From positions 64,001 to 128,000 of IMG/VR virus record IMGVR_UViG_3300043446_003702: DNA of 64,000 nt, one strand, 5' to 3'. This DNA is from a virus. This document shows positions 12,701 to 58,924 of the stretch, piece by piece; the first letter of the stretch is position 1; every line of letters begins with the position of its first letter. A program made the translations under genes and the position numbers. Below the pieces are notes generated by a model. That model worked only from the letters and a program-made list of their open reading frames with translations. It was not told the DNA's origin and made no database searches.

Positions 12701-15700
12701 AGGACTTACAATGGTTTGAGTAAACCTGTAAGTGGTAAAATCAATGTCATAAAAAGCTGTTCCTACACTGCCGGGCAATACAGAAAGTTTGGCCCCAACG
12801 GGTGCTGCGGCAGAATTTTTTACAGAAATGGTTAGATAGTTTTGGTCATCCACAGATGCTGTTACATTGGGCACGTCAATGTTGATCTGTGCTGCTAGAG
12901 CACGATAATCCACTGATGCCAACACAGTGGTTGTGTCAACCACACGCCAGTAACTTGTATTGGTCAACGCAGTGCCAGCCGGCACACTTTGCAAGCTGGC
13001 GTATATGGTTGTAACAGAAGTCAAGGTGGCGTAAACCACAGTATTGACAGGATAGGCAATGGTACTGCTCCATGCACTGGGTACTGTCACATCTTGATTG
13101 TTTACTCGCAGGGTGTCGCCATTGTCTAGGTCTGCTCCAGGATTGCCAGATTGTGTGATTCCGTATGTCAAACTTTGATTGACCAATCGCTCCACTGCAC
13201 CAGCTTTGAATTGCTGCACACTGCTGTTGGGTACGCCCACATACAGACTGCAATTGTAACTGCACAAGTCGGTGGCATAGCCATAACTTGAAAACTCTTC
13301 AACTGTGCTTTGATTTACAGCTTGTACCAATTGGAAGTCATTGGTTTCAATTTCAATAATGTCACCTATCTGCAGGTCAGCAAAAATAGTGATAGTGTTG
13401 CCATTTACGGCAAATGTGTTGCTTTGATTAGGAGTTGCTGATTTTTCATTGACCAAGAATGTACCATTCACCAATACACCCACTGGTTCAGACACTGAGC
13501 CTAGCACTGTGAATGTTACACTTGATGCATCAGTGCCGTAGATAAAGCGTTGCACATTTCTATCATATACATACACGGTGCCTGCTTGCGATTTACCATT
13601 GACTGTTTTGTTGGGTGCGCCAATCAACACTTGACGTCCATCTGTACTGGTGCTGACTGAGTAGCCAAAGTTATCTCCTGCCGCACTGCCAGCATTGGTG
13701 ATTGCACCAGCATACTGGAAGTATCCTTCAGCACGCACTAGAATACTTGACCCGGCTGGTGGAGAATTTAAAAATGTCAAGTCATTGCCCAAGGTGCTGT
13801 CGCCACTGAAGATGTAGTCAATTTCGGGCCGTTGTAGTACATCGTCAACTATTACACTGAAGCTGTAGAGATTATCTACCGTGTAGAAGTATTCATTTAG
13901 TGAAAATGACACTGTCAGTGGCGGCGGAGTGTAACTTGGTGTGCCGTTGATGGCTATAATGACTCCACTGTTTGCTGTAACGATAAATGTGATGTCATTG
14001 GTTGGGCTTGAGCCCCCATCAAAACTTGCTGCTGGAATTGTTATGGTGTTGCCAGTGGTATATCCTGTGCCGCCATTTTCCACACTCACGGTCACTGTGC
14101 CTCGAATTCTTGTTACCACAAAAGTTGCATTGGAACCTGTACCGCCAGTGCCTGCTAGTCCGTAGTAGACTTGATAGTCTAGCAGTTTACGACTGGTTCT
14201 AATGATTTCAATTGCATCCCCTGCCGCAGGTGCTGTGGCAAACTCTACCATGGTAAATGAATTGACCACTGTGTAGTCTATGCCAAGGATTTGTTCGTCG
14301 CCGGCCACACTCACCGTAAGCTGCGTATCAGCGTCAATTTTAATATCTGCGCCAATGGCATAAGAAGTCGTTACGCCATCACCCAATGCTTGCACACGCT
14401 GTGTTTCCCAATCAACTCGTCCGTATGCGTACACAGCATTGGCACCTGGTGCACCAACGTACAACCAACGTTCGTCAAGACTTACTGCTACACTCTGTCC
14501 AAATTTTTCTGGGGCAGTTATTGAATTTGGTGATGTAAGCAGTTGCCATTGTCCATAAGGTATGTTGCCAGGTGCGGCCAATTGTGGGTCTTTAAAGATA
14601 ACCACAGCATAGCCGTTGTTGGGTATGCCATCTGCGCCCAAGCTGCCCGGTGCACCAGCGGCTGCCCAGGTTTGATTGCCAAAATCCACGCTGGTACCAT
14701 ATTCTCTTGCTGCTGATTGGCCATTATATGGACCGCCGCTCTTGTCAGTGATAGTCAGACTCAGGACTGAGTCAGCAGGAGCCAATGGACTGGCTGGCGT
14801 ATAATTATTATTGTCACTCTTCACATATACATACACACCGCCACGGCGGGGCAAACTATTCAACGAGTACGGGGTCCAATATGCAGTATTGTAGATGCTG
14901 ACACCTTGTGGCACTGGTGCAGGTGTTCCGCCAACATTGGCAATGTAAAATTCAGTTTGATAAGGATCAGAAACATATACAATAGCATCTTCTGCGTATG
15001 CATTAGCAATGTTCCATTGTGTAGCGCCTACTGGGAATCGATATCGTGGGCTACCAACCAAAGCAGCAAAGCGATTTTGAGCTTGCGTTACACTGCTGCC
15101 GTACTGCTCACCTTCGTCTACTTGACCTGGGGCAAGGCTCAATAATTCAGTGAATACTTCTTGCTTTTCCAGCACGGTCCATAAGTCACTGCCATTGTTG
15201 TCAACCCAAACTCTAGCGCCAGGTTCAATAGTGTTGGCATAAGGCAAATTTAAAATATCGCTGGCTTGAGATACTCGTTGAGTTTTCAATGTGAAACCAA
15301 GACCTGTGCCATTGACTACTGTGCGATCGCCTGTAAAACTAAAAGCAATGGTGACTGTGTCAAGACTCACTACATTAAGTACTGTGTATACACCGTTTAC
15401 TTCTGAGTCAAAAAATCTTATCACTAGTTTGTCGCTTGCAGCAAGGCCATGTTGTTTAGAAAATATAACCAAGCTGGTCCCATCTAGATTGTCACACACA
15501 TGCGCAATTACACCAGGAACAGATTCAGCTCGATAAATTGCCCAATCGTATGCATTGACTTTTGCTACCCAAATAGTTGTGCCAACACCAATGTTGTTGA
15601 TGTTTGCTGCTAAACTATCCGTATTGTCAATATCAAAAACTGTGATGTTGACATCATTAAAATTCACATAACCTGCTGTAGGTAACGCAATGTCTGTGGG

Positions 15701-41120: not shown

Positions 41121-41667
41121 AATTTTGTTGCAGTGCGAAACACGACTGGGTGCACCAATGATACGTTGTACCATAGACGAAGGTGCGCCATTTTTTGACG
41201 GTCCAGCACAGGAACACATCTCAGCCACACTAGGTGTAGCACCAGGATTTCATGAACTGGTGATTAGTCATTATAACAAACAAGATCATGATCATGTGTT
41301 GGACAATAATGGGTGCATCATCATAGACAAGCATGTTGAAATCCTAGCTATTAGTATAGACAACCTTGAGTTCAGCATGGATGAACTAAGGCAAGCACAT
41401 TTTTATCCTGTGTACCAATCTGTTTATTATCAACAGCAGTTGGACCAAGGCCATAAGTTGCCTCCCAGTATTTCTCCAAATTTGTACTTGGGACACAATG
41501 GTATTTGGAAGTTGAACTTTCACACACCGTTTGTGGAATATATTATACAAAAACGTAAAAATTTGGCCATGAACTTGGACAACACTATTTTTCAAAGTGA
41601 TACTGAGTTGTTACGCCAAACCAAAGACTGGATACAGGCACAACCGGACATTGTATGGAACATATAG
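41110..41667 (+). CDS. Hypothetical beta-rich protein (paralog of 42670..43155)
   Basis: Shared pattern HY.K...NG.I..D...E...I..D...L(Y/F)(L/F)G.NG.W...F..P. Confidence 0.7.
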   Translation: MKIEILLQCETRLGAPMIRCTIDEGAPFFDGPAQEHISATLGVAPGFHELVISHYNKQDHDHVLDNNGCIIIDKHVEILAISIDNLEFSMDELRQAHFYPVYQSVYYQQQLDQGHKLPPSISPNLYLGHNGIWKLNFHTPFVEYIIQKRKNLAMNLDNTIFQSDTELLRQTKDWIQAQPDIVWNI

Positions 41668-42692
41668 GCAGACAGTTTGCCATGGCCATGGCCTTAGCAC
41701 AAAATCCCCATGCTGATTTTTGGGCAGTGAGATCTGCCATCAACGGATATTACATTGGCAGCAGGGTGGATCAGGATCCTGTTGTAGAAACATTGTTGAA
41801 TACAACTATTCGCATAGAAGATGTGGTTCGTGCTGCCAACAGCAATGATCAACTTATACAATTAGAGCAGCGGTTTGCCAGCTGGATATTGAGTCACCAA
41901 ACCAATACTATCACAGGACTGGAACAATACGAACCTGACTACAGTGAAGGCAGTACACAGGCCTTTGACAGTTTTTACTTTAGACACAGACACCGACGCT
42001 TTCGTTGCTTTGTAGGCGAATACTTTTATCACCCAAAAACTTGGATTAGCACCGGTGCTGATTGGAGTTTTATCACTGACAGAGATCCGCTTGGTTCTGG
42101 AGATGCACTGGTATTAAGTGTGCCATTTTGTGACACAGTTGGCGTAGTTGATAATTACGCTCAACTCATGCAGTGGTGCCAAGCAATGAATATTCCAGTG
42201 CTGTTGGACTTGTGCTATTGGCCTATTAGTCATGACTTACATGTTGATTTGTGTTACAATTGCATAGACACTGTGGCGTTTAGTCTCAGCAAAGCCTGGC
42301 CTGTGGGCACTGCCCGAATAGGCATGCGATACACCCGATCAGACACATTTGATGGACAGAAACTGCATCACAGCATGGGATATAACAACAATGTAGGTGC
42401 CATGATAGGCAACGTATTGTTAGATAATTTTGCTCCAGACTGGATTTATACCACTCGCCAAAGTAAATACAAAACTGTATGTAAAGTACTGAACTTACAG
42501 CCTACCCATAGTGTGAACTTTGGCATTGGTGACTCTTCTTGGGATCGCTACAATCGTAGAGAATTGTTAAAATCTTATCAATTAGACTTTGATCCCAATT
42601 TGTTCGTAAATCGTATTTGTGTGAACCGAGTGTATCAACACTGGGATTTGTTTAGGACTTTTTGTCGCCATGAACTTGACATTGAAATTTAA
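41655..42692 (+). CDS. PLP-dependent enzyme, fold type I
   Basis: GSTQAF, GEYFYH, SVPF, LLDLCY, FSLSK (Schiff-base Lys), RIGMR. Confidence 0.75.
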   Translation: MEHIGRQFAMAMALAQNPHADFWAVRSAINGYYIGSRVDQDPVVETLLNTTIRIEDVVRAANSNDQLIQLEQRFASWILSHQTNTITGLEQYEPDYSEGSTQAFDSFYFRHRHRRFRCFVGEYFYHPKTWISTGADWSFITDRDPLGSGDALVLSVPFCDTVGVVDNYAQLMQWCQAMNIPVLLDLCYWPISHDLHVDLCYNCIDTVAFSLSKAWPVGTARIGMRYTRSDTFDGQKLHHSMGYNNNVGAMIGNVLLDNFAPDWIYTTRQSKYKTVCKVLNLQPTHSVNFGIGDSSWDRYNRRELLKSYQLDFDPNLFVNRICVNRVYQHWDLFRTFCRHELDIEI

Positions 42693-43155
42693 AAATATAC
42701 AACCCTGCAACGGTCTACCCATGATTCACATTGTGATCAACGATGCCTTGGTATTTGAAAACTCTGTGCGTCCGGAGATCAACATACAATGCCATCCTGT
42801 AGACAACAAGATCAACTTGAGCATCCAGCACTACGGCAAAGACCCTACAACAGATACCGTGGTTGAGAATGGTGTGATTGTGCAAGACCGCAGTTGTGAA
42901 CTTGATAGCATTGAAGTAGACGGCTATGACCTACAAGAGTTGAAATGGTTGAGTACATATCACTGTGATGATGGCGCAGTTTTAGACAAGTGTCTGTTCT
43001 TTGGTAAAAATGGTACATGGCGGATTGCATTTGAATTGCCAGTATTGCAGTGGATACTGCGAACCAGGCACAACATCAATGGCAATGATCCCAACTGGTC
43101 TGAAGATTATGAAAGTTATGTGAGAGCATGCAGACTGCTGAACAAATCAATCTAA
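42670..43155 (+). CDS. Hypothetical beta-rich protein (paralog of 41110..41667)
   Basis: HYGKD...ENGVIVQD...FFGKNGTWRIAFELP. Confidence 0.7.
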   Translation: MNLTLKFKNIQPCNGLPMIHIVINDALVFENSVRPEINIQCHPVDNKINLSIQHYGKDPTTDTVVENGVIVQDRSCELDSIEVDGYDLQELKWLSTYHCDDGAVLDKCLFFGKNGTWRIAFELPVLQWILRTRHNINGNDPNWSEDYESYVRACRLLNKSI

Positions 43156-44189
43156 TACAACAAATCAGTTGGGCACTGGCCAAGGCCAGTGCCGAAGACT
43201 GCTTGGACACGCCTGGCGAGTTTGTGTGGGCCTATCCACAGAACTCGCAATTCTGGGAAGTACGAGCACGTAGCCATAGCATATTCAGTAGTGGCAATGC
43301 TATCAAAGACCAAATCGTTATCGATTTTGTCAACCATTTGAGTTTGAGTGAGCACCTTAGAGACTGCTGGATTGTCAACAAGTTTCAAGAAGCATTTCCT
43401 GCATGGATTGCTGCTGGCACTCGATACCGATTACATAACTTGGATCAGTTCCGGTATGTGGGCTTTTCACAAGGCACACAGGAATCATTTCTTAACTGGT
43501 ACATGATGCACAAGGACCAGCGACTGCGAGTGTTTCGTGGCGACTACTGGTGGCACATGGAGATCTGGCAAAAGGCCGGGTTCAACTGGCGGTACATCGA
43601 CGATGATTTTGATATCAAACCTGGCGATGCTTGTATATGCAGTCTGCCGTTTGCACTCACAGGTCAAGAACATGAACGCTTCAAGTGGTTGGTAGAACAG
43701 TGTGACCGCCAAGGTGTGGACCTGTTGGTGGACTTTATCTACTTGCCCAACAGCAACAATGTTGTGGACATTGACTTGAGTGCAGACTGTATCAAAGAAA
43801 TAACATTCAGTCTCAGCAAAACATTTCCTGTGCAAACAGCCAAGATTGCTGTGCGCATGCTAAAACACAAACCCAGCGATCCCATGCAGATGAGCAACGA
43901 TGAAAACATTTGCAACCGTTTGAGTAGCGGATTAGCATTGAGTCTAATACAGCAGTTCCCTGTGGACTACATGGTGAACAAATATCTAGATCAACAGACA
44001 TATTGGTGTGAACGCTTGGGATTACGACCCACCGGCGTTGTACATTTTGGACTGGGTGAAAACTATACTGCCACAGGCAGACAGCAAGAATTGAACTATC
44101 TAAGCAAATATAACGAGCAACAAAATCGCTATAATCTGGGCATGCTCTTTGAAAATCAAAATTTCCTGAAAAAACTTCAATTATACTAA
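43128..44189 (+). CDS. PLP-dependent enzyme, fold type I (paralog)
   Basis: GTQESF, GDYWWH, SLPF, LVDFIY, FSLSK, KIAVR. Confidence 0.75.
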   Translation: MQTAEQINLIQQISWALAKASAEDCLDTPGEFVWAYPQNSQFWEVRARSHSIFSSGNAIKDQIVIDFVNHLSLSEHLRDCWIVNKFQEAFPAWIAAGTRYRLHNLDQFRYVGFSQGTQESFLNWYMMHKDQRLRVFRGDYWWHMEIWQKAGFNWRYIDDDFDIKPGDACICSLPFALTGQEHERFKWLVEQCDRQGVDLLVDFIYLPNSNNVVDIDLSADCIKEITFSLSKTFPVQTAKIAVRMLKHKPSDPMQMSNDENICNRLSSGLALSLIQQFPVDYMVNKYLDQQTYWCERLGLRPTGVVHFGLGENYTATGRQQELNYLSKYNEQQNRYNLGMLFENQNFLKKLQLY

Positions 44190-44233
44190 AGGCAACATAA
44201 CTACAGCACGAAAGGCAGATCCCGCTCAAGCAC

Positions 44234-44662
44234 ATGACATGGTTATATCAAGACACCCCAGTTGAGACTTTACCTGAAGAATGTGTGGGTTTTGTTTATC
44301 AAATCACAAATAATCTATCTGGACGCAAGTACATAGGCAAAAAATTAGCAAAATTCAGTAAGACAACGTACAAGACAGTAAAACAAAAGAACGGCACAAA
44401 AAAGCGGAAGAAGATACGAACCAAAGTCGATTCAGACTGGCGTGAGTACTACGGGTCAAGCCCAGAATTAACCGCAGACGTAATCAAACTAGGCATCGAA
44501 AACTTCACCAGAGAGATACTCTTCTATTGCAAATCAAAGTCTGAATGTAGTTACATTGAGGCACGAGAACAGTTTGCACGTCGAGTATTGGAATCAGCAG
44601 ATTATTACAACGGCCATATACAAGTACGTGTACATGGCTCACATATCAAAGACAAAATTTAA
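44234..44662 (+). CDS. Stand-alone GIY-YIG endonuclease
   Basis: GFVY...KYIG...YYGS...F.REIL...E...YYN; a single catalytic domain with a Lys-rich insert. Confidence 0.85.
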   Translation: MTWLYQDTPVETLPEECVGFVYQITNNLSGRKYIGKKLAKFSKTTYKTVKQKNGTKKRKKIRTKVDSDWREYYGSSPELTADVIKLGIENFTREILFYCKSKSECSYIEAREQFARRVLESADYYNGHIQVRVHGSHIKDKI

Positions 44663-44664
44663 CA

Positions 44665-45025
44665 GGCAGTAACGACTCGCACAGGTCAACAACGTGTGCC
44701 CTGGACCTGGATCTTGGATCGCAGGGATGGAAGACTCACCGCGCCAGTGAGCACTCAGCAACTATCCTTGACAGGACGACGATCGCAAATTGCCGCGGTT
44801 TTGCTGTTTGAAAAGAATTCCCAGGCTAAAAAGACGCTGCCGCGGGGCAGCAGGTCAGTGCAATGTGTTAGCGTATGTTGTATTGATTGCCGTTGTAGTA
44901 AAGACGCAACTCGAGGTACAGGACAACCGCCTCTGTAATTGTTGTAACGCTAGGTGCTATCAGAACTCAGATGAAGCAGCCTTTGCCCTGTGCGGGCAAA
45001 GTGTGACTATAGAATCTAGATGAAA
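44665..45025 (+). ncRNA. Putative large structured non-coding RNA of unassigned class
   Basis: At least eight stems, a three-way junction, a 15-bp helix with 7 G-U pairs that forms only on the + strand, and a 6-bp pseudoknot; no credible ORF. Boundaries approximate. Confidence 0.75.
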
Positions 45026-45026
45026 C

Positions 45027-45099
45027 TGTTTCGCTTCGCTCGAAAGAAAACAATGAGTTGATGAGCATAGCGAAATCAACAGATCTACGAAGTAGATCT
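45027..45099. repeat. Cluster of three short hairpins at the junction of convergent transcription units
   Basis: TTTCG/CGAAA, GTTGAT/ATCAAC and perfect AGATCTAC-GAA-GTAGATCT. Confidence 0.75.
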
Positions 45100-45441
45100 T
45101 TAATCGTTGAGATTAGTATCTGGCCAATCTCTAAACAGTGCATGTTGAATGTTTCCTGAAACAAACTGATTGAAACTCTTGTGTTTGGTTTCAAGATCGC
45201 CTTTGAGTGGGGCAACTCGTTTGAATGCGCTGTCCATTTGAGCCATGTCTTTAAACTCCATGATGATCATCCATTCAGGCATGTCAGCTATGCTACGAAA
45301 TCCCATTTTGCAACGAGTGATCCTGTAGGTTTCCATGCGTCCTTCTTCAACAAGATGATCAAAGAAACTTTTCATACCGTTGACCCAATCTAGGTCTGAT
45401 ATGTCTCCCTCTTTGTCTGCCCATATTGTGTATAAATCCAT
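45100..45441 (-). CDS. DUF6614-like protein
   Basis: MDLYTIW.D....SDLDW...FFDHL..EG....YRITRCKMGF....PEW.I.MEF..MAQMD.AF, recognised from memory of the family. Confidence 0.6.
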   Translation of the reverse strand: MDLYTIWADKEGDISDLDWVNGMKSFFDHLVEEGRMETYRITRCKMGFRSIADMPEWMIIMEFKDMAQMDSAFKRVAPLKGDLETKHKSFNQFVSGNIQHALFRDWPDTNLND

Positions 45442-46381: not shown

Positions 46382-46612
46382 TTAAAAGTACGGTAAGTTA
46401 GATTTCTTTGTGGTCTCAATATTTTCTTTGGCAAGTTCGTTGATTAGTTTTCGTTCTGCAGCACTCATTTGCATAACATCATTATAACTAGCGCCTCCAC
46501 GCATGTACCAAGCTAACCTGAGACTTTCTGCCCTGATTTGTCCAGCCTCCTGATCCAAGCGGTCTACATATGAACTGATTTGCTCAGGAGAAGAGACTAG
46601 GAGGCGGAGGCG
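46382..46612 (-). CDS. gp51-like/tail-chaperone extension, probably expressed by -1 frameshift from the upstream gene
   Basis: 76 open codons RLRLLVSSPEQISSYVDRLDQEAGQIRAESLRLAWYMRGGASYNDVMQMSAAERKLINELAKENIETTKKSNLPYF; fills the intergenic gap exactly; absent from the track. Confidence 0.7.
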   Translation of the reverse strand, partial: RLRLLVSSPEQISSYVDRLDQEAGQIRAESLRLAWYMRGGASYNDVMQMSAAERKLINELAKENIETTKKSNLPYF

Positions 46613-47439
46613 AAAAAATTTGCAATGTCCAAGTCTAGTGCTTGTTCATATTCGTGATCACACTCAGTGCATTTTATTTTCAATGGCGGTATATCACTCT
46701 GTTGTCTCAGAGACACCACATGTTCTCGTATTTGATTGTATATTTTACTTTCACAATTTCTTAAAAATTCTTCAATCTGTGCTGAGTCTGACACTACATC
46801 ATTGGGTGTTTTGATAATTGCAATGCTTTGGCAGATTATGTTTATTGTTAAATCAGTGATGATTTTCAATGCCTGAGTTAGTCGACTCATTTTTTCTTCT
46901 TCAGGCAATTCTGAAGTTGGCAGTGTAGACAAAATCTTTTGTTGCTCAAATTGTGCAATACTACTTTGATTTTGTTGTTCGTAGGTGACTGGTTTAAACA
47001 CAATTTCTAAATCACCATAGTGAACAGTTTCGGCAAAATTTGGAACACGAAGTTGATCTAAGATTGTGCGCAGATCCAGTGCGTATTCTTCTTCATGGCT
47101 GCATGACGGACATGTGGCATTTAGGCCCATTTCGTGTCCTTGGCTGGCAATACGTATGGCTATCAACAATGGACTGAGATCAATGTTGGGCACATGCCAA
47201 GCATTTTTGATAGCAGGAACACAACTTTGTATCACACTGATCACTGCTTGTCCGTTGAACAAGGCATCTGGTGTGCGATATGTTATTTCGTCAATGGCAG
47301 TCATGGGATATATTGGTACCTCTCCATTGGCGGGCAGGTCCAACGAGGCTGCTGGCCAATATCGTCCAGCACTGGGCAATTTTAGATAGATTGCAGGTTG
47401 TCTAAAAAATTGTCGTAACGGATTGGGTGATTGGGTCAT
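46597..47439 (-). CDS. Baseplate hub assembly/tail chaperone protein, gp26-like
   Basis: YLKLPS.G...PMTAIDEI...DALFNG...LLIAIRIAS.G; two CxxC pairs (CPSC, CTEC); ends ANFF. Confidence 0.75.
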   Translation of the reverse strand: MTQSPNPLRQFFRQPAIYLKLPSAGRYWPAASLDLPANGEVPIYPMTAIDEITYRTPDALFNGQAVISVIQSCVPAIKNAWHVPNIDLSPLLIAIRIASQGHEMGLNATCPSCSHEEEYALDLRTILDQLRVPNFAETVHYGDLEIVFKPVTYEQQNQSSIAQFEQQKILSTLPTSELPEEEKMSRLTQALKIITDLTINIICQSIAIIKTPNDVVSDSAQIEEFLRNCESKIYNQIREHVVSLRQQSDIPPLKIKCTECDHEYEQALDLDIANFFASAS

Positions 47440-57997: not shown

Positions 57998-58093
57998 CAT
58001 AAATATTTGTGACGCAATTCGGCGTCTTATGCAGTGCTAACCCTCTGCGTAGCGGCTAGAACCCGCATTGGGCTTCTTTAAGGAGAAATCAAA
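57998..58093 (+). promoter_or_regulatory. Late promoter plus structured 5-prime leader
   Basis: CATAAATA, then three adjacent hairpins, then TAAGGAG RBS. Confidence 0.6.
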
Positions 58094-58924
58094 ATGGGAA
58101 GAGCTCTCAAAATTGCAAAATACGGCACCGCTCAAGGTGTAACATATCCAACGTCAACTTCAGTTAACCAACCTGCAGCCGCAGTCAATGTTGATGTTGG
58201 TTATCCCAACTTTGGATCTTTAACTGATCCAGTATACAACGCACCTGTACAAACTCTTGATGCTGCACAATATCTTGGTGTTGTTGGTGGCAGTCCTGCC
58301 AGCAGTGTTGCAACTGCTACCAATCCGCAGATTGCCGCAGTAGTGAACATTGCATTGCAAGACGGTACCAGCACCACTGCTGGCGCCGGTCGCATCATCC
58401 GTCAAAAAGGTGCACACAAATTCTTGGTGGCTTACACAGCCAGCACCACAGCTGACGGTAGTTTTATTGTGGGACAAGCATATCAAATTGCTGTAGTGGG
58501 CACCACTGACTGGGCTGCTGCTGGCGCCAAAGGGAGTCCAGTGGCCGCTGGTGACATTTTTACTGCAACCAGCGTGGGCGGAGCAGGCACAGGTGAAGCA
58601 TACCCAGTGGACATCTGTGTGTTGAGCAACACTGCAACACCAGCTGCTGGTTACATGAGTATTGCTTACAGCACTGGTGACAGTTCAGCTGTTTACGCCA
58701 GCTACATCACCAACAAGTGGGTGCGTGACTGGAATGGCATGACCTATGGTAACTATGCTGATACCAACTATGGTACTAACACTCAAAGCAGTGAAAACTA
58801 CTATGCTGCCAACTTCTTCACAGACGAAGGCACAGTTACATGGAGTGGTGCAGAAATTGTCAACAGTGCTTATGCACAAAACGGCACAGTGCAATTGGCT
58901 CAAATTGCCAGCGTTACTTCTTAA
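58094..58924 (+). CDS. Virion structural protein (possibly head-associated)
   Basis: MGRALKI start, IIRQKG.HKFLV motif, Ala/Thr/Gly-rich, strong RBS and late promoter. Confidence 0.6.
   Translation: MGRALKIAKYGTAQGVTYPTSTSVNQPAAAVNVDVGYPNFGSLTDPVYNAPVQTLDAAQYLGVVGGSPASSVATATNPQIAAVVNIALQDGTSTTAGAGRIIRQKGAHKFLVAYTASTTADGSFIVGQAYQIAVVGTTDWAAAGAKGSPVAAGDIFTATSVGGAGTGEAYPVDICVLSNTATPAAGYMSIAYSTGDSSAVYASYITNKWVRDWNGMTYGNYADTNYGTNTQSSENYYAANFFTDEGTVTWSGAEIVNSAYAQNGTVQLAQIASVTS

What the first reader, a model, noticed from the sequence alone, without database searches (positions are those of the whole stretch)
44196..45025. Minimal GIY-YIG nuclease followed directly by a large ornate ncRNA: candidate nuclease-RNA system
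Seen in sequence: right after the GIY-YIG stop (44662), an otherwise gene-dense genome keeps ~360 nt without a credible ORF that folds almost continuously. Stems: GCACA/TGTGC (44679-44699); CCCTG/CAGGG enclosing GATC/GATC (44699-44726); CTCAC/GTGAG (44735-44751); a three-way junction closed by CAGCAA/TTGCTG (44756-44806) with arms TCCT/AGGA and GATCGC/GCGGTT; GCTGCC/GGCAGC (44836-44851); a 15-bp helix 44853-44867/44874-44888; GCAAC/GTTGT enclosing GAGG/CCTC (44906-44945); CTTTGCCC/GGGCAAAG (44981-45001). The 15-bp helix has 7 G-U pairs, which would be C-A mismatches on the other strand, so the structure is + strand RNA, the same sense as the nuclease. Its loop TTAGCG (44868-44873) is complementary to CGCTAG (44948-44953), giving a long-range pseudoknot. 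I see no terminator or clear promoter between gene and RNA; a late-promoter-like CATAACTA (44196-44203) precedes the gene. Established: homing GIY-YIG enzymes such as I-TevI use a separate C-terminal DNA-binding domain. This 142-aa protein has none, but has a very basic insert (KTTYKTVKQKNGTKKRKKIRTK). Inference: protein and RNA are co-transcribed and may form a ribonucleoprotein (RNA-guided or RNA-scaffolded nuclease, by analogy to HEARO/OMEGA), or the RNA is an independent ribozyme or structural RNA. I do not recognise it as tRNA, tmRNA, RNase P, 6S or a group I/II intron.
Basis: partly seen in the sequence, partly recalled or inferred. Interest (0 to 1): 0.88.

Follow-up and report, generated by a model that had tools for sequence, protein, structure and literature searches.

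The report
Extended Polynucleobacter-1 twin-box phage RNA
The gene-free stretch behind a small nuclease gene of this uncultured freshwater T4-like phage encodes a real, roughly 430-base, doubly knotted non-coding RNA. Its first third is the catalogued but unexplained Polynucleobacter-1 motif, nothing I could test ties its working to the nuclease, and its job is still unknown.

Summary
Window 44663-45100 (+) is a structured RNA. On 55 distinct relatives, 93% of cells in a 96-pair model pair (35-42% in slid controls), and 73 pairs show compensatory changes.

It is not unknown. 44674-44809 is Rfam RF01718, Polynucleobacter-1 (114.8 bits, cut-off 37). Weinberg et al. 2010 already noted that this motif lies downstream of PSSM2_218-like genes, and PSSM2_218 is a homologue of this GIY-YIG protein.

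The uncatalogued 3' two-thirds hold one 7-nt word, AGATGAA, twice (44969-75 and 45018-24). The two copies change together at least 19 times among relatives. No complementary partner was found.

The nuclease-RNA particle reading is not supported:
- The protein family is common in cultured phages, and three examined loci have no RNA.
- The RNA occurs in Polynucleobacter chromosomes and a few phage loci without the protein.
- Identical proteins sit before RNAs of different architecture.
- No protein column tracks the word.

Function remains unknown. My best guess is a trans-acting scaffold RNA that presents two identical boxes.

Earlier reports of this scan described the same family on other genomes many times ("twin-box RNA").

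The parts
44234..44662 (+). Stand-alone GIY-YIG nuclease gene (142 aa; phrog_447; homologue of cyanophage P-SSM2 PSSM2_218). It is a neighbour of the RNA and has not been shown to be its partner.
   Evidence: PF19835 at 114 bits. phrog_447 E 9e-38. Model pLDDT 96; best fold I-TevI catalytic domain, Z 8.7. Y22, Y33, G35, E109 and N126 are invariant. 37% identity to PSSM2_218, E 6e-20.
44663..45100 (+). Full-length structured RNA (type A of the extended Polynucleobacter-1 / twin-box family). The 5' end is uncertain by about 10 nt.
   Evidence: Conserved over its whole length in relatives. 96-pair model: 93% of cells paired, 73 pairs compensatory, 0 of 500 shuffles as high.
44674..44809 (+). 5' domain, equal to Rfam RF01718 Polynucleobacter-1: P1 44679-99, P2 44707-24, P3 44735-51, and a three-way junction 44756-44806.
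   Evidence: cmscan 114.8 bits against a gathering score of 37, model positions 1-141 of 141. Helices 1-7.
44836..44851 (+). Hairpin GCTGCC/GGCAGC with a GNRA-like loop.
   Evidence: 5 of 6 pairs compensatory (helix 8).
44853..44888 (+). Long hairpin rich in G-U pairs. Its loop 44868-44874 forms pseudoknot 1.
   Evidence: 13 of 14 pairs compensatory (helix 9).
44947..44953 (+). 3' strand of pseudoknot 1, pairing with 44868-44874.
   Evidence: 7 of 7 pairs compensatory, 92% of cells paired (helix 10).
44892..44927 (+). Pseudoknot 2: GTTGT 44892-96 pairs with ACAAC 44923-27, which lies in the loop of the GAGG/CCTC hairpin 44913-33. This is the most conserved core.
   Evidence: 100% of cells paired, 2 pairs compensatory (helix 11). 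Type B has GTTGAC/GTCAAC at the same place.
44906..44945 (+). Helix GCAAC/GTTGT that encloses the core hairpin.
   Evidence: 5 of 5 pairs compensatory (helix 12).
44969..44975 (+). Twin box 1, AGATGAA, preceded by the invariant CTC.
44981..45001 (+). Hairpin between the boxes (CTTTGCCC/GGGCAAAG), followed by the conserved TGTGAC at 45002-45007.
   Evidence: helices 14-15. Types B and C and the bacterial copies have other perfect hairpins here.
45018..45024 (+). Twin box 2, AGATGAA, preceded by the invariant TCT.
   Evidence: 168 identical pairs and 2 pairs that differ at position 1 only. The top mutual-information partner of each box column is its twin.
45057..45080 (+). 3' hairpin with the conserved internal motif TGA-GC...GC-GAAA.
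   Evidence: 6 of 6 outer and 2 of 2 inner pairs compensatory (helices 16-17). Shared by types A, B and C and by the bacterial copies.
45081..45099 (.). Terminator-like hairpin at the meeting point of the RNA and the convergent DUF6614 gene.
   Evidence: 7 of 8 pairs compensatory (helix 18). The scan flags it on the minus strand.

Best explanation
Window 44663-45100 (+) is a gene for a stable non-coding RNA of about 430 nt with two pseudoknots. It is a typical 'type A' member of a large family of uncultured freshwater T4-like phages. Rfam catalogues only the 5' third of that family, as Polynucleobacter-1 (RF01718).

Shown:
- The fold.
- The family.
- Conserved placement behind a stand-alone GIY-YIG gene in this phage group.
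- Two identical 7-nt boxes that flank a hairpin and always change together.

Inferred:
- The RNA and the nuclease are neighbours by conserved gene order, in a stable-RNA/nucleotide-metabolism neighbourhood like the tRNA region of T4-like phages. They are not parts of one particle.
- The RNA is probably made by read-through from the upstream gene and trimmed.
- It acts in trans as a scaffold. Its shared 3' module shows two identical boxes to two copies of one reader, most simply a complementary nucleic acid that evolves along with the boxes.
- The exchangeable 5' two-thirds (types A, B, C) tune something else.

For: Family and fold:
- RF01718 at 114.8 bits.
- Covariation: 93% of cells paired against 35-42% in slid controls, 73 of 96 pairs compensatory, 0 of 500 shuffles as high, both pseudoknots supported.
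- RNAalifold independently recovers most helices.
- The 3' module is shared by three architectures and by bacterial copies.

Twin boxes:
- 168 pairs identical and 2 pairs that differ at position 1 only.
- Each box column's best mutual-information partner is its twin (0.85, 0.89 and 1.34 bits; next best 0.36-0.61).
- The word changes at least 19 times on the type-A tree. Box 2 followed box 1 in essentially all independent contrasts on supported branches (5.0, 3.0 and 4.9 of 5, 3 and 5) and never went the other way. Each position alone is too small a sample to reach p 0.05.

Independence from the nuclease:
- tblastn finds the protein in 503 cultured phage records. Blastn finds the RNA in none.
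- Melnitz, S-SM2 and YB07 have the gene and no RNA.
- RF01718 occurs in Polynucleobacter and Oxalobacteraceae chromosomes with no GIY homologue nearby.
- 5 of 101 RNA-anchored phage loci lack GIY.
- RNA type changes at least 16 times on the GIY tree, including behind 100% identical proteins.
- No GIY column tracks the word.

Expression, a weak hint only: metatranscriptome contigs from four studies hold relatives of the RNA.
Against: - No transcript ends, strand or abundance are shown. The RNA-library contigs could come from DNA.
- No partner for the boxes was found in the RNA itself, in flanks of 3-10 kb, or in this phage's 148-kb record. That record is only about 43% complete.
- Linkage to a nuclease gene is very strong in phages: 96 of 101 loci have GIY upstream, and 3 of the 5 exceptions have a PDDEXK endonuclease instead. 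A functional tie is therefore not excluded.
- The boxes toggle mostly A/G at positions 1 and 5. A fixed partner with U at those places would tolerate either base without any need for concerted change. That fits direct box-to-box contact at least as well as a trans partner.
Confidence: 0.55

Rival explanations
1. Nuclease-RNA particle. The GIY-YIG protein lacks a DNA-binding domain, so it binds this RNA, which scaffolds it or guides it to targets. The twin boxes would be guide-like segments, by analogy with IscB/TnpB omega-RNAs.
For: - The gene and the RNA are adjacent and co-oriented, with about 16 nt between them.
- 96 of 101 RNA-anchored loci have GIY upstream.
- The protein is only the catalytic domain plus a basic beta-hairpin.
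- The boxes are short, variable and apparently unpaired.
Against: - The protein family is widespread. The three cultured-phage loci I examined have no RNA, and blastn finds the RNA in no cultured phage record.
- The RNA occurs without the protein in bacteria and in some phage loci.
- In about a dozen of the 80 protein-anchored loci and 15 of the 101 RNA-anchored ones, 0.3-1.2 kb (in several an extra gene) lies between the two.
- Identical proteins pair with RNAs of different architecture.
- No protein column co-varies with the boxes.
- No target of the boxes was found.
Confidence: 0.07
2. Homing-type association. The GIY-YIG gene is a Seg-like selfish nuclease gene lodged next to a highly conserved RNA gene. 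It cuts rival alleles nearby, and repair drags the flanking RNA allele along. That would explain both the adjacency and the frequent swapping of RNA types.
For: - The best Pfam family is SegE_GIY-YIG, and the closest fold is I-TevI.
- The RNA contains 19-nt stretches identical in over 120 contigs, which would make good homing targets.
- RNA alleles A, B and C are exchanged between otherwise 85-94% identical backgrounds, right beside the nuclease gene.
- A different nuclease family (PDDEXK_15) sits upstream in 3 loci.
- From my own knowledge: T4 segB lies inside the T4 tRNA gene cluster.
Against: - The gene is nearly universal rather than sporadic in this group.
- It keeps a conserved place in cyanophages that lack the RNA.
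- It has no DNA-binding domain of the Seg type.
- It is under strong conservation (73-96% identity).
Confidence: 0.18
3. The twin boxes contact each other rather than a partner. One form would be a short stretch of like-with-like base pairs between two parallel strands. Another would be a symmetric non-canonical internal loop. Identity would then be a structural requirement of the RNA's own fold.
For: - The covariation is by identity, not complementarity, at positions 1, 2, 4, 5 and 7.
- The only two exceptions are at the terminal position.
- No complementary partner was found anywhere I searched.
- A linker of about 43 nt containing a hairpin could bring the boxes into parallel register.
- A/G toggling would not need to be concerted if a U-containing partner read the boxes.
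Against: - To my knowledge no natural RNA has a 7-pair parallel stretch of like-with-like pairs, and I have no structural or probing data.
- Paired antiparallel to each other, the boxes would form only non-canonical pairs (my inspection of the words seen), which argues against the symmetric-loop form.
Confidence: 0.15
4. The element works at the DNA level or in cis. It could be a replication origin or recombination site, or merely a structured 3' UTR and terminator of the nuclease mRNA.
For: - It lies at a convergent gene junction next to baseplate genes. As I recall, that resembles the place of T4 ori(uvsY).
- It follows the upstream ORF directly, and no own promoter was detected.
Against: - The pairing is strand-specific, with G-U pairs and two covarying pseudoknots.
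- The gene persists in bacterial chromosomes with a TATAAATA box about 75 nt upstream of it (my reading of the sequence), far from any phage origin.
- 430 nt of conserved tertiary structure is far more than a terminator needs.
Confidence: 0.05

Closest known systems
Polynucleobacter-1 RNA motif (Rfam RF01718; Weinberg et al. 2010, Genome Biol 11:R31, PMC2864571)
   Same: Window 44674-44809 matches the whole model at 114.8 bits. The helices are the same. The gene context is the one reported in 2010, downstream of a PSSM2_218-like gene. The function is unknown there too.
   Different: The Rfam model ends at 44809. The conserved, covarying RNA runs on for about 290 nt. That part holds two pseudoknots, the twin boxes, a 3' hairpin and a terminator-like hairpin. 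The 2010 alignment carried parts of this only as flanks. Sister architectures B and C share the 3' module but do not match RF01718 at all.
HEARO / omega-RNA with IscB, and TnpB omega-RNA (OMEGA systems)
   Same: A structured RNA of several hundred nt lies directly beside a small nuclease gene, and it has short variable segments.
   Different: - There is no Rfam match.
- I noted no transposon ends around the phage locus, though I did not test for them specifically.
- Protein and RNA occur apart, do not co-evolve, and no target was found.
- The nuclease is GIY-YIG, not RuvC/HNH.
Large phage- and prophage-associated RNAs GOLLD (RF01998) and ROOL (RF03087)
   Same: A large, multiply folded RNA of unknown function carried by phages and mobile islands.
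   Different: No model match even at E up to 10. It is smaller, at about 430 nt. Twin identical boxes are not, to my knowledge, a described feature of those RNAs.
T4 tRNA-region stable RNAs (rnaC, rnaD) with the GIY-YIG gene segB among them (my own knowledge, not tested)
   Same: A Seg-type GIY-YIG gene sits beside stable RNA genes of unknown function in a T4-like phage. In cyanophages S-SM2 and S-RIM8 the homologous GIY gene lies just before the tRNA cluster.
   Different: This phage's 29 tRNA genes lie about 85 kb away. I did not compare sequence or structure with rnaC or rnaD. SegB has a DNA-binding domain, and this protein does not.
I-TevI catalytic domain and the SegE family of GIY-YIG endonucleases
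   Same: The fold (Z 8.7, rmsd 2.7 over 82 residues), the Pfam family and the conserved catalytic-type residues.
   Different: There is no linker or C-terminal DNA-binding domain. A 27-residue basic beta-hairpin is inserted after the YIG strand. The gene is conserved rather than sporadic.

Membership tests
Rfam RF01718 Polynucleobacter-1 RNA | Covariance-model score at or above the gathering score, over the full model | tested here: met
   114.8 bits against a cut-off of 37, model positions 1-141 of 141, E 8e-26.
Rfam RF01718 Polynucleobacter-1 RNA | Consensus helices kept by compensatory changes | tested here: met
   In helices 1-7, 23 of 31 pairs have changes on both sides. Cells paired range from 79% to 100%.
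Rfam RF01718 Polynucleobacter-1 RNA | Gene context reported by the authors: downstream of a gene related to P-SSM2 PSSM2_218 | tested here: met
   The supplement text is quoted. PSSM2_218 against the window protein: 37% identity, E 6e-20.
GIY-YIG nuclease superfamily (PF19835 SegE_GIY-YIG) | Profile match above the cut-off, and the GIY-YIG fold | tested here: met
   114.1 bits against a cut-off of 25, profile positions 1-123 of 123. The four top structural matches are all GIY-YIG enzymes, Z 8.7-5.6.
GIY-YIG nuclease superfamily (PF19835 SegE_GIY-YIG) | Conserved catalytic-type residues (Tyr of GIY, Tyr-x-Gly of YIG, Glu, Asn) | tested here: met
   Y22, Y33, G35, E109 and N126 are invariant and R93 nearly invariant in 46 diverse homologues. 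Assigning roles to these residues is inference.
GIY-YIG nuclease superfamily (PF19835 SegE_GIY-YIG) | DNA cleavage activity | not testable with these tools
   This needs the purified protein.
Free-standing homing endonuclease of the Seg type | Separate C-terminal DNA-binding domain | tested here: not met
   The protein is 142 aa and the domain spans residues 3-129. Over 8000 clusters are of similar length, against 8 longer forms.
Free-standing homing endonuclease of the Seg type | Sporadic presence among closely related genomes | tested here: not met
   Present in 96 of 101 RNA-anchored loci and in 503 cultured phage records.
RNA-guided nuclease systems (OMEGA/HEARO, CRISPR-like) | Obligate co-occurrence and co-evolution of the protein and its RNA | tested here: not met
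   Each occurs without the other. The RNA type switches at least 16 times on the protein tree. No protein column tracks the boxes.
RNA-guided nuclease systems (OMEGA/HEARO, CRISPR-like) | A variable guide segment that matches identifiable targets | tested here: inconclusive
   The boxes are variable, but no matching site stands out in cis, in the flanks, or in the 148-kb record. Host genomes were not testable.
tRNA, tmRNA, RNase P, 6S, group I/II introns, known ribozymes, GOLLD/ROOL/HEARO | A match to the family's model | tested here: not met
   ARAGORN finds none in the window. cmscan at E up to 10 gives only RF01718 plus chance-level hits.

The most novel reading that the evidence does not exclude
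The twin boxes mark an undescribed principle: covariation by identity. One possibility is that the two copies form a short stretch of like-with-like base pairs between parallel strands inside the RNA. The other is that they are two identical reading heads that hold two copies of one fast-evolving nucleic-acid partner, for example in a conflict between phage and host. Under either reading, the exchangeable 5' domains and the neighbouring nuclease gene would belong to a new kind of phage RNA system.
Probability: 0.12. Interest if true: 0.9.

Novelty: new variant of a known kind. Interest (0 to 1): 0.6.

Why it matters
Large RNAs with several pseudoknots are rare, and most of them turned out to be ribozymes or the cores of important machines. 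This one is abundant. The linked protein family alone has over 8000 sequence clusters in metagenomes. The RNA appears in hundreds of viral contigs and in cultured Polynucleobacter strains, so it can be studied at the bench today.

The catalogued entry, RF01718, covers only a third of the molecule and misses the most unusual feature: two identical boxes that mutate in step. A corrected full-length model would improve the annotation of freshwater phage genomes. It would also give structural and genetic work a defined target.

For the question asked here, the useful result is negative. The tempting "RNA-guided GIY-YIG nuclease" story is not supported.

Tried and rejected
1. Thermodynamic excess: none (z +0.14 and -0.32).
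2. tRNA or tmRNA: ARAGORN finds none in the window. The phage has its tRNAs, and a possible tmRNA, about 85 kb away.
3. Other Rfam families for 44810-45100: only chance-level hits at E 4-10.
4. Cultured phages: blastn of 44100-45200 finds no match. Melnitz, S-SM2 and YB07 have the gene but no RNA.
5. A complementary partner of the boxes:
   - No constant place inside the RNA.
   - No tracking site in flanks of 3-10 kb.
   - 7-mer counts in the own genome are at chance, and every other copy lies inside an ORF.
6. The best match is 5 contiguous pairs with the anticodon loop of one tRNA-Met. The frequent box ending in T would need an A at tRNA position 32, which is rare. Generic T-loop matches need wobble pairs and a mismatch. 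Rejected as unsupported.
7. Kink-turn or box C/D reading of GATGA...TGAC. The G-to-A change at box position 5 and the lack of flanking helices argue against it (inspection).
8. The boxes as a small ORF or as stop codons. Spacing is not a multiple of 3, and the words AGACGAA and AGCGAAA break both ideas.
9. A 'YAGGCA' promoter motif: 264 copies, almost all inside ORFs.
10. A canonical late promoter before the gene or the RNA: none within 6 kb.
11. DUF6641, the bacterial neighbour of the RNA: not found in this phage record. The same search also rang in none of the control genomes, so this says little.
12. Metatranscriptome contigs. They show that relatives are present in four RNA libraries. They cannot show ends, strand or level. 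One contig with the 5' domain had depth 185 against 5-18 for GIY contigs. I treat that as a hint only.
13. The genome contigs pattern scan gave mostly chance hits. Only the Polynucleobacter-like ones were confirmed by Rfam.
Full report
**What is there**

The window is part of a 148-kb IMG/VR virus record. It is a T4-like phage: a baseplate hub gene lies at 46597-47439, and the record has 29 tRNA genes elsewhere.

ORF 44234-44662 (+) is a 142-aa GIY-YIG protein. It matches PF19835 SegE_GIY-YIG at 114 bits, with the profile matched end to end, and phrog_447. The next gene, DUF6614, is on the minus strand at 45100-45441. The 437 nt in between therefore sit at a convergent junction.

**Known part**

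cmscan places Rfam RF01718 (Polynucleobacter-1 RNA) at 44674-44809. The score is 114.8 bits against a cut-off of 37, over the full model.

The only paper in the library that names this motif is Weinberg et al. 2010. Its supplement says the motif is usually downstream of genes related to PSSM2_218 of cyanophage P-SSM2, and that it was not seen in any purified phage. PSSM2_218 is a 145-aa protein mis-annotated as 'NAD synthetase'. It is a homologue of the window's nuclease (37% identity, E 6e-20). So both the 5' motif and its gene association were already reported, although the neighbour was not described there as a nuclease.

**Unknown part**

Relatives fetched through the protein (80 loci) and through a conserved 19-mer of the RNA (120 loci) show conservation far beyond the Rfam model, up to the hairpin at 45081-45099.

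I tested a 96-pair model on 55 distinct type-A sequences.
- 93.0% of cells pair, against 35-42% when partners are slid by 1-3 columns.
- 73 pairs carry changes on both sides.
- The covariation score is 0.423, against 0.045-0.086 for the slid controls.
- None of 500 shuffles reaches the observed values.

RNAalifold independently finds most of the helices.

One example is TAGCGT/ACGCTA becoming TAGCAT/ATGCTA or TCACGT/ACGTGA. A second pseudoknot (44892-96 with 44923-27) is 100% paired and covaries: GTTGT/ACAAC, GTCGT/ACGAC, and GTTGAC/GTCAAC in type B.

The minimum free energy is not better than shuffles. The case therefore rests on evolution, not on energy.

**Family structure**

At least three architectures occupy the same genomic slot.
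- Type A has the RF01718 5' domain. The window is type A.
- Type B has a different 5' domain. None of the 20 type-B and type-C loci I scanned matched any Rfam family.
- Type C has another one.

All three share a 3' module, in this order:
- an invariant CTC plus a 7-nt box;
- a hairpin;
- (T)GTGAC;
- an invariant TCT plus the same 7-nt box;
- an A-rich spacer;
- a hairpin with a TGA-GC...GC-GAAA core;
- a terminator-like hairpin.

**Twin boxes**

In the window both boxes read AGATGAA (44969-75 and 45018-24). Across the loci, 168 pairs are identical and 2 pairs differ at position 1 only.

Words seen in phage loci are AGATGAA, AGATGAT, AGATGAG, AGATAAT, GGATGAA, GGATGAT, GGATAAT, ACATGAA and AGACGAA. 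Polynucleobacter rarus has AGCGAAA.

Each box column's strongest statistical partner in the whole RNA is its twin. Within type A the word changes at least 19 times on a tree built without the boxes. In the independent contrasts on supported branches (5, 3 and 5 for the three variable positions) box 2 went the same way as box 1 in essentially all and never the other way. Each position alone is too small a sample to reach p 0.05.

No complementary 7-mer sits at a constant place in the RNA. None tracks the word in the flanks. None is enriched in this phage's record, where every other copy lies inside an ORF. Phage tRNAs give no convincing match.

**Is the nuclease part of it?**

For:
- In RNA-anchored phage loci with enough upstream sequence, 96 of 101 have the GIY gene upstream on the same strand. 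It is adjacent in 81 of them, and in 15 an extra 0.3-1 kb lies in between.
- Three of the five exceptions carry a PF24608 PDDEXK endonuclease gene instead.

Against:
- tblastn finds the protein family in 503 cultured phage records, 339 of them Synechococcus phages. Blastn finds the RNA in none.
- The closest cultured homologue, in Methylophilales phage Melnitz (50% identity), is followed by a late promoter and small ORFs, not by the RNA.
- In S-SM2 and S-RIM8 the gene precedes tRNA genes. In S-SKS1, ACG-2014f and P-SSM2 it precedes ordinary genes.
- RF01718 occurs in chromosomes of Polynucleobacter isolates and an Oxalobacteraceae genome, with the full 3' module and twin boxes. There is no GIY homologue nearby. 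A DUF6641 gene lies divergently adjacent, with an integrase or an IS3 transposase close by.
- GIY proteins that are 100% or 98.6% identical precede RNAs of different type. The type switches at least 16 times on the protein tree. Pairwise comparison shows that the RNA body is the replaced cassette, inside backgrounds that are otherwise 85-94% identical.
- No column of the protein, and none in the basic hairpin, tracks the box word.

**The protein itself**

It is a well-formed GIY-YIG catalytic domain.
- The model has pLDDT 96.
- The four best structural matches are all GIY-YIG enzymes: I-TevI catalytic domain Z 8.7, PD-T4-3 Z 7.2, UvrC N-terminal domain Z 5.7 and T4 EndoII Z 5.6.
- Y22, Y33, G35, E109 and N126 are invariant.
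- The 'basic insert' is a beta-hairpin of about 27 residues and is part of the family profile.

The family is almost always a stand-alone protein of 130-190 aa. Lack of a DNA-binding domain is therefore a property of a very large family, and several members I examined have no such RNA next to them.

**Transcription**

No sigma-70-like or canonical late promoter lies between or just before the gene and the RNA. Only about 16 nt separate the stop codon from the first helix. In all phage loci the RNA follows a same-strand ORF closely. Read-through plus processing is my inference. In P. rarus, a TATAAATA box about 75 nt upstream suggests the gene has its own promoter there.

Metatranscriptome contigs of four studies contain relatives of the gene, the RNA and the downstream gene. 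They cannot prove transcription or define ends.

**Verdict**

The headline interpretation is not supported. The thing is a typical member of a family that is only partly catalogued.

Function is unknown. I commit, at moderate confidence, to a trans-acting scaffold RNA whose conserved 3' module presents two identical boxes. Direct box-to-box pairing and a homing-type link to the nuclease are the main rivals.

Earlier reports of this scan reached the same description on many other genomes. I treated them as leads and re-derived the twin boxes, the independence from the nuclease and the bacterial copies here.

Noticed in passing
window 58010-58096 (+): A second catalogued orphan RNA, Rfam RF02980 freshwater-2, at 68.6 bits (cut-off 49.9).
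   Followed up: no
G000 C1 11170-24162 (outside the window): 29 tRNA genes, plus an ARAGORN permuted-tmRNA call at 12802-13187 with tag ANDELFALAA. The surroundings of the tmRNA call look coding, so it needs checking.
   Followed up: partly
L255 3073-3573, L223 1518-1991, L266 5705-6217: In all three bacterial loci I examined, a DUF6641 (PF20346) gene lies divergently next to the 5' end of the RNA. A phage-type integrase (L266) or an IS3 transposase (L255) is close by. DUF6641 is a candidate bacterial partner of the RNA. It was not found in this phage record, though that search rang nowhere, including the controls.
   Followed up: partly
L183 11831-12352, L122 338-853 (-), L133 9425-9925 (-): In three of the five phage loci that lack the GIY gene, a PF24608 PDDEXK_15 endonuclease gene lies upstream of the RNA. 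A second nuclease family occupies the same neighbourhood.
   Followed up: partly
L086, L122 and L183, the 60-90 nt before the RNA: Two to four tandem repeats of about 10 nt (TAGGCACA / CACACTTAGG-like) stand directly in front of the RNA in loci without the GIY gene.
   Followed up: no
window 45031-45041 and 45063-45073: TCGCTTCGCTC is complementary (11 pairs with a 2-nt bulge) to the loop GAGCATAGCGA of the 3' hairpin. This is a possible alternative pairing or third pseudoknot. Many relatives lack the element, and in others it forms its own small hairpin.
   Followed up: partly
window 41655-42692 and 43128-44189: Two paralogous ORFs of about 350 aa (26% identical) upstream of the nuclease gene have no Pfam or PHROG match. 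In other loci, unrelated ORFs of 240-340 aa are inserted between the nuclease gene and the RNA.
   Followed up: no
cultured cyanophage records, e.g. L307 26712-27149 (PSSM2_218): Members of this GIY-YIG family are annotated 'NAD synthetase' in many cultured phage records and in phrog_447. This appears to be a propagated mis-annotation.
   Followed up: partly
L203 2501-3274 (S-SM2), L205 1765-2483 (S-RIM8): In two cyanophages the homologous GIY-YIG gene sits just upstream of tRNA genes (downstream of nrdA-nrdB in S-SM2). The gene may generally mark a stable-RNA neighbourhood. In S-SKS1, ACG-2014f and P-SSM2 it does not.
   Followed up: partly
window 44917-44924: The window's conserved core reads GGTACAGG where 54 of 55 relatives have GGTACCGG. 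This is a private C-to-A change in an otherwise nearly invariant stretch.
   Followed up: no
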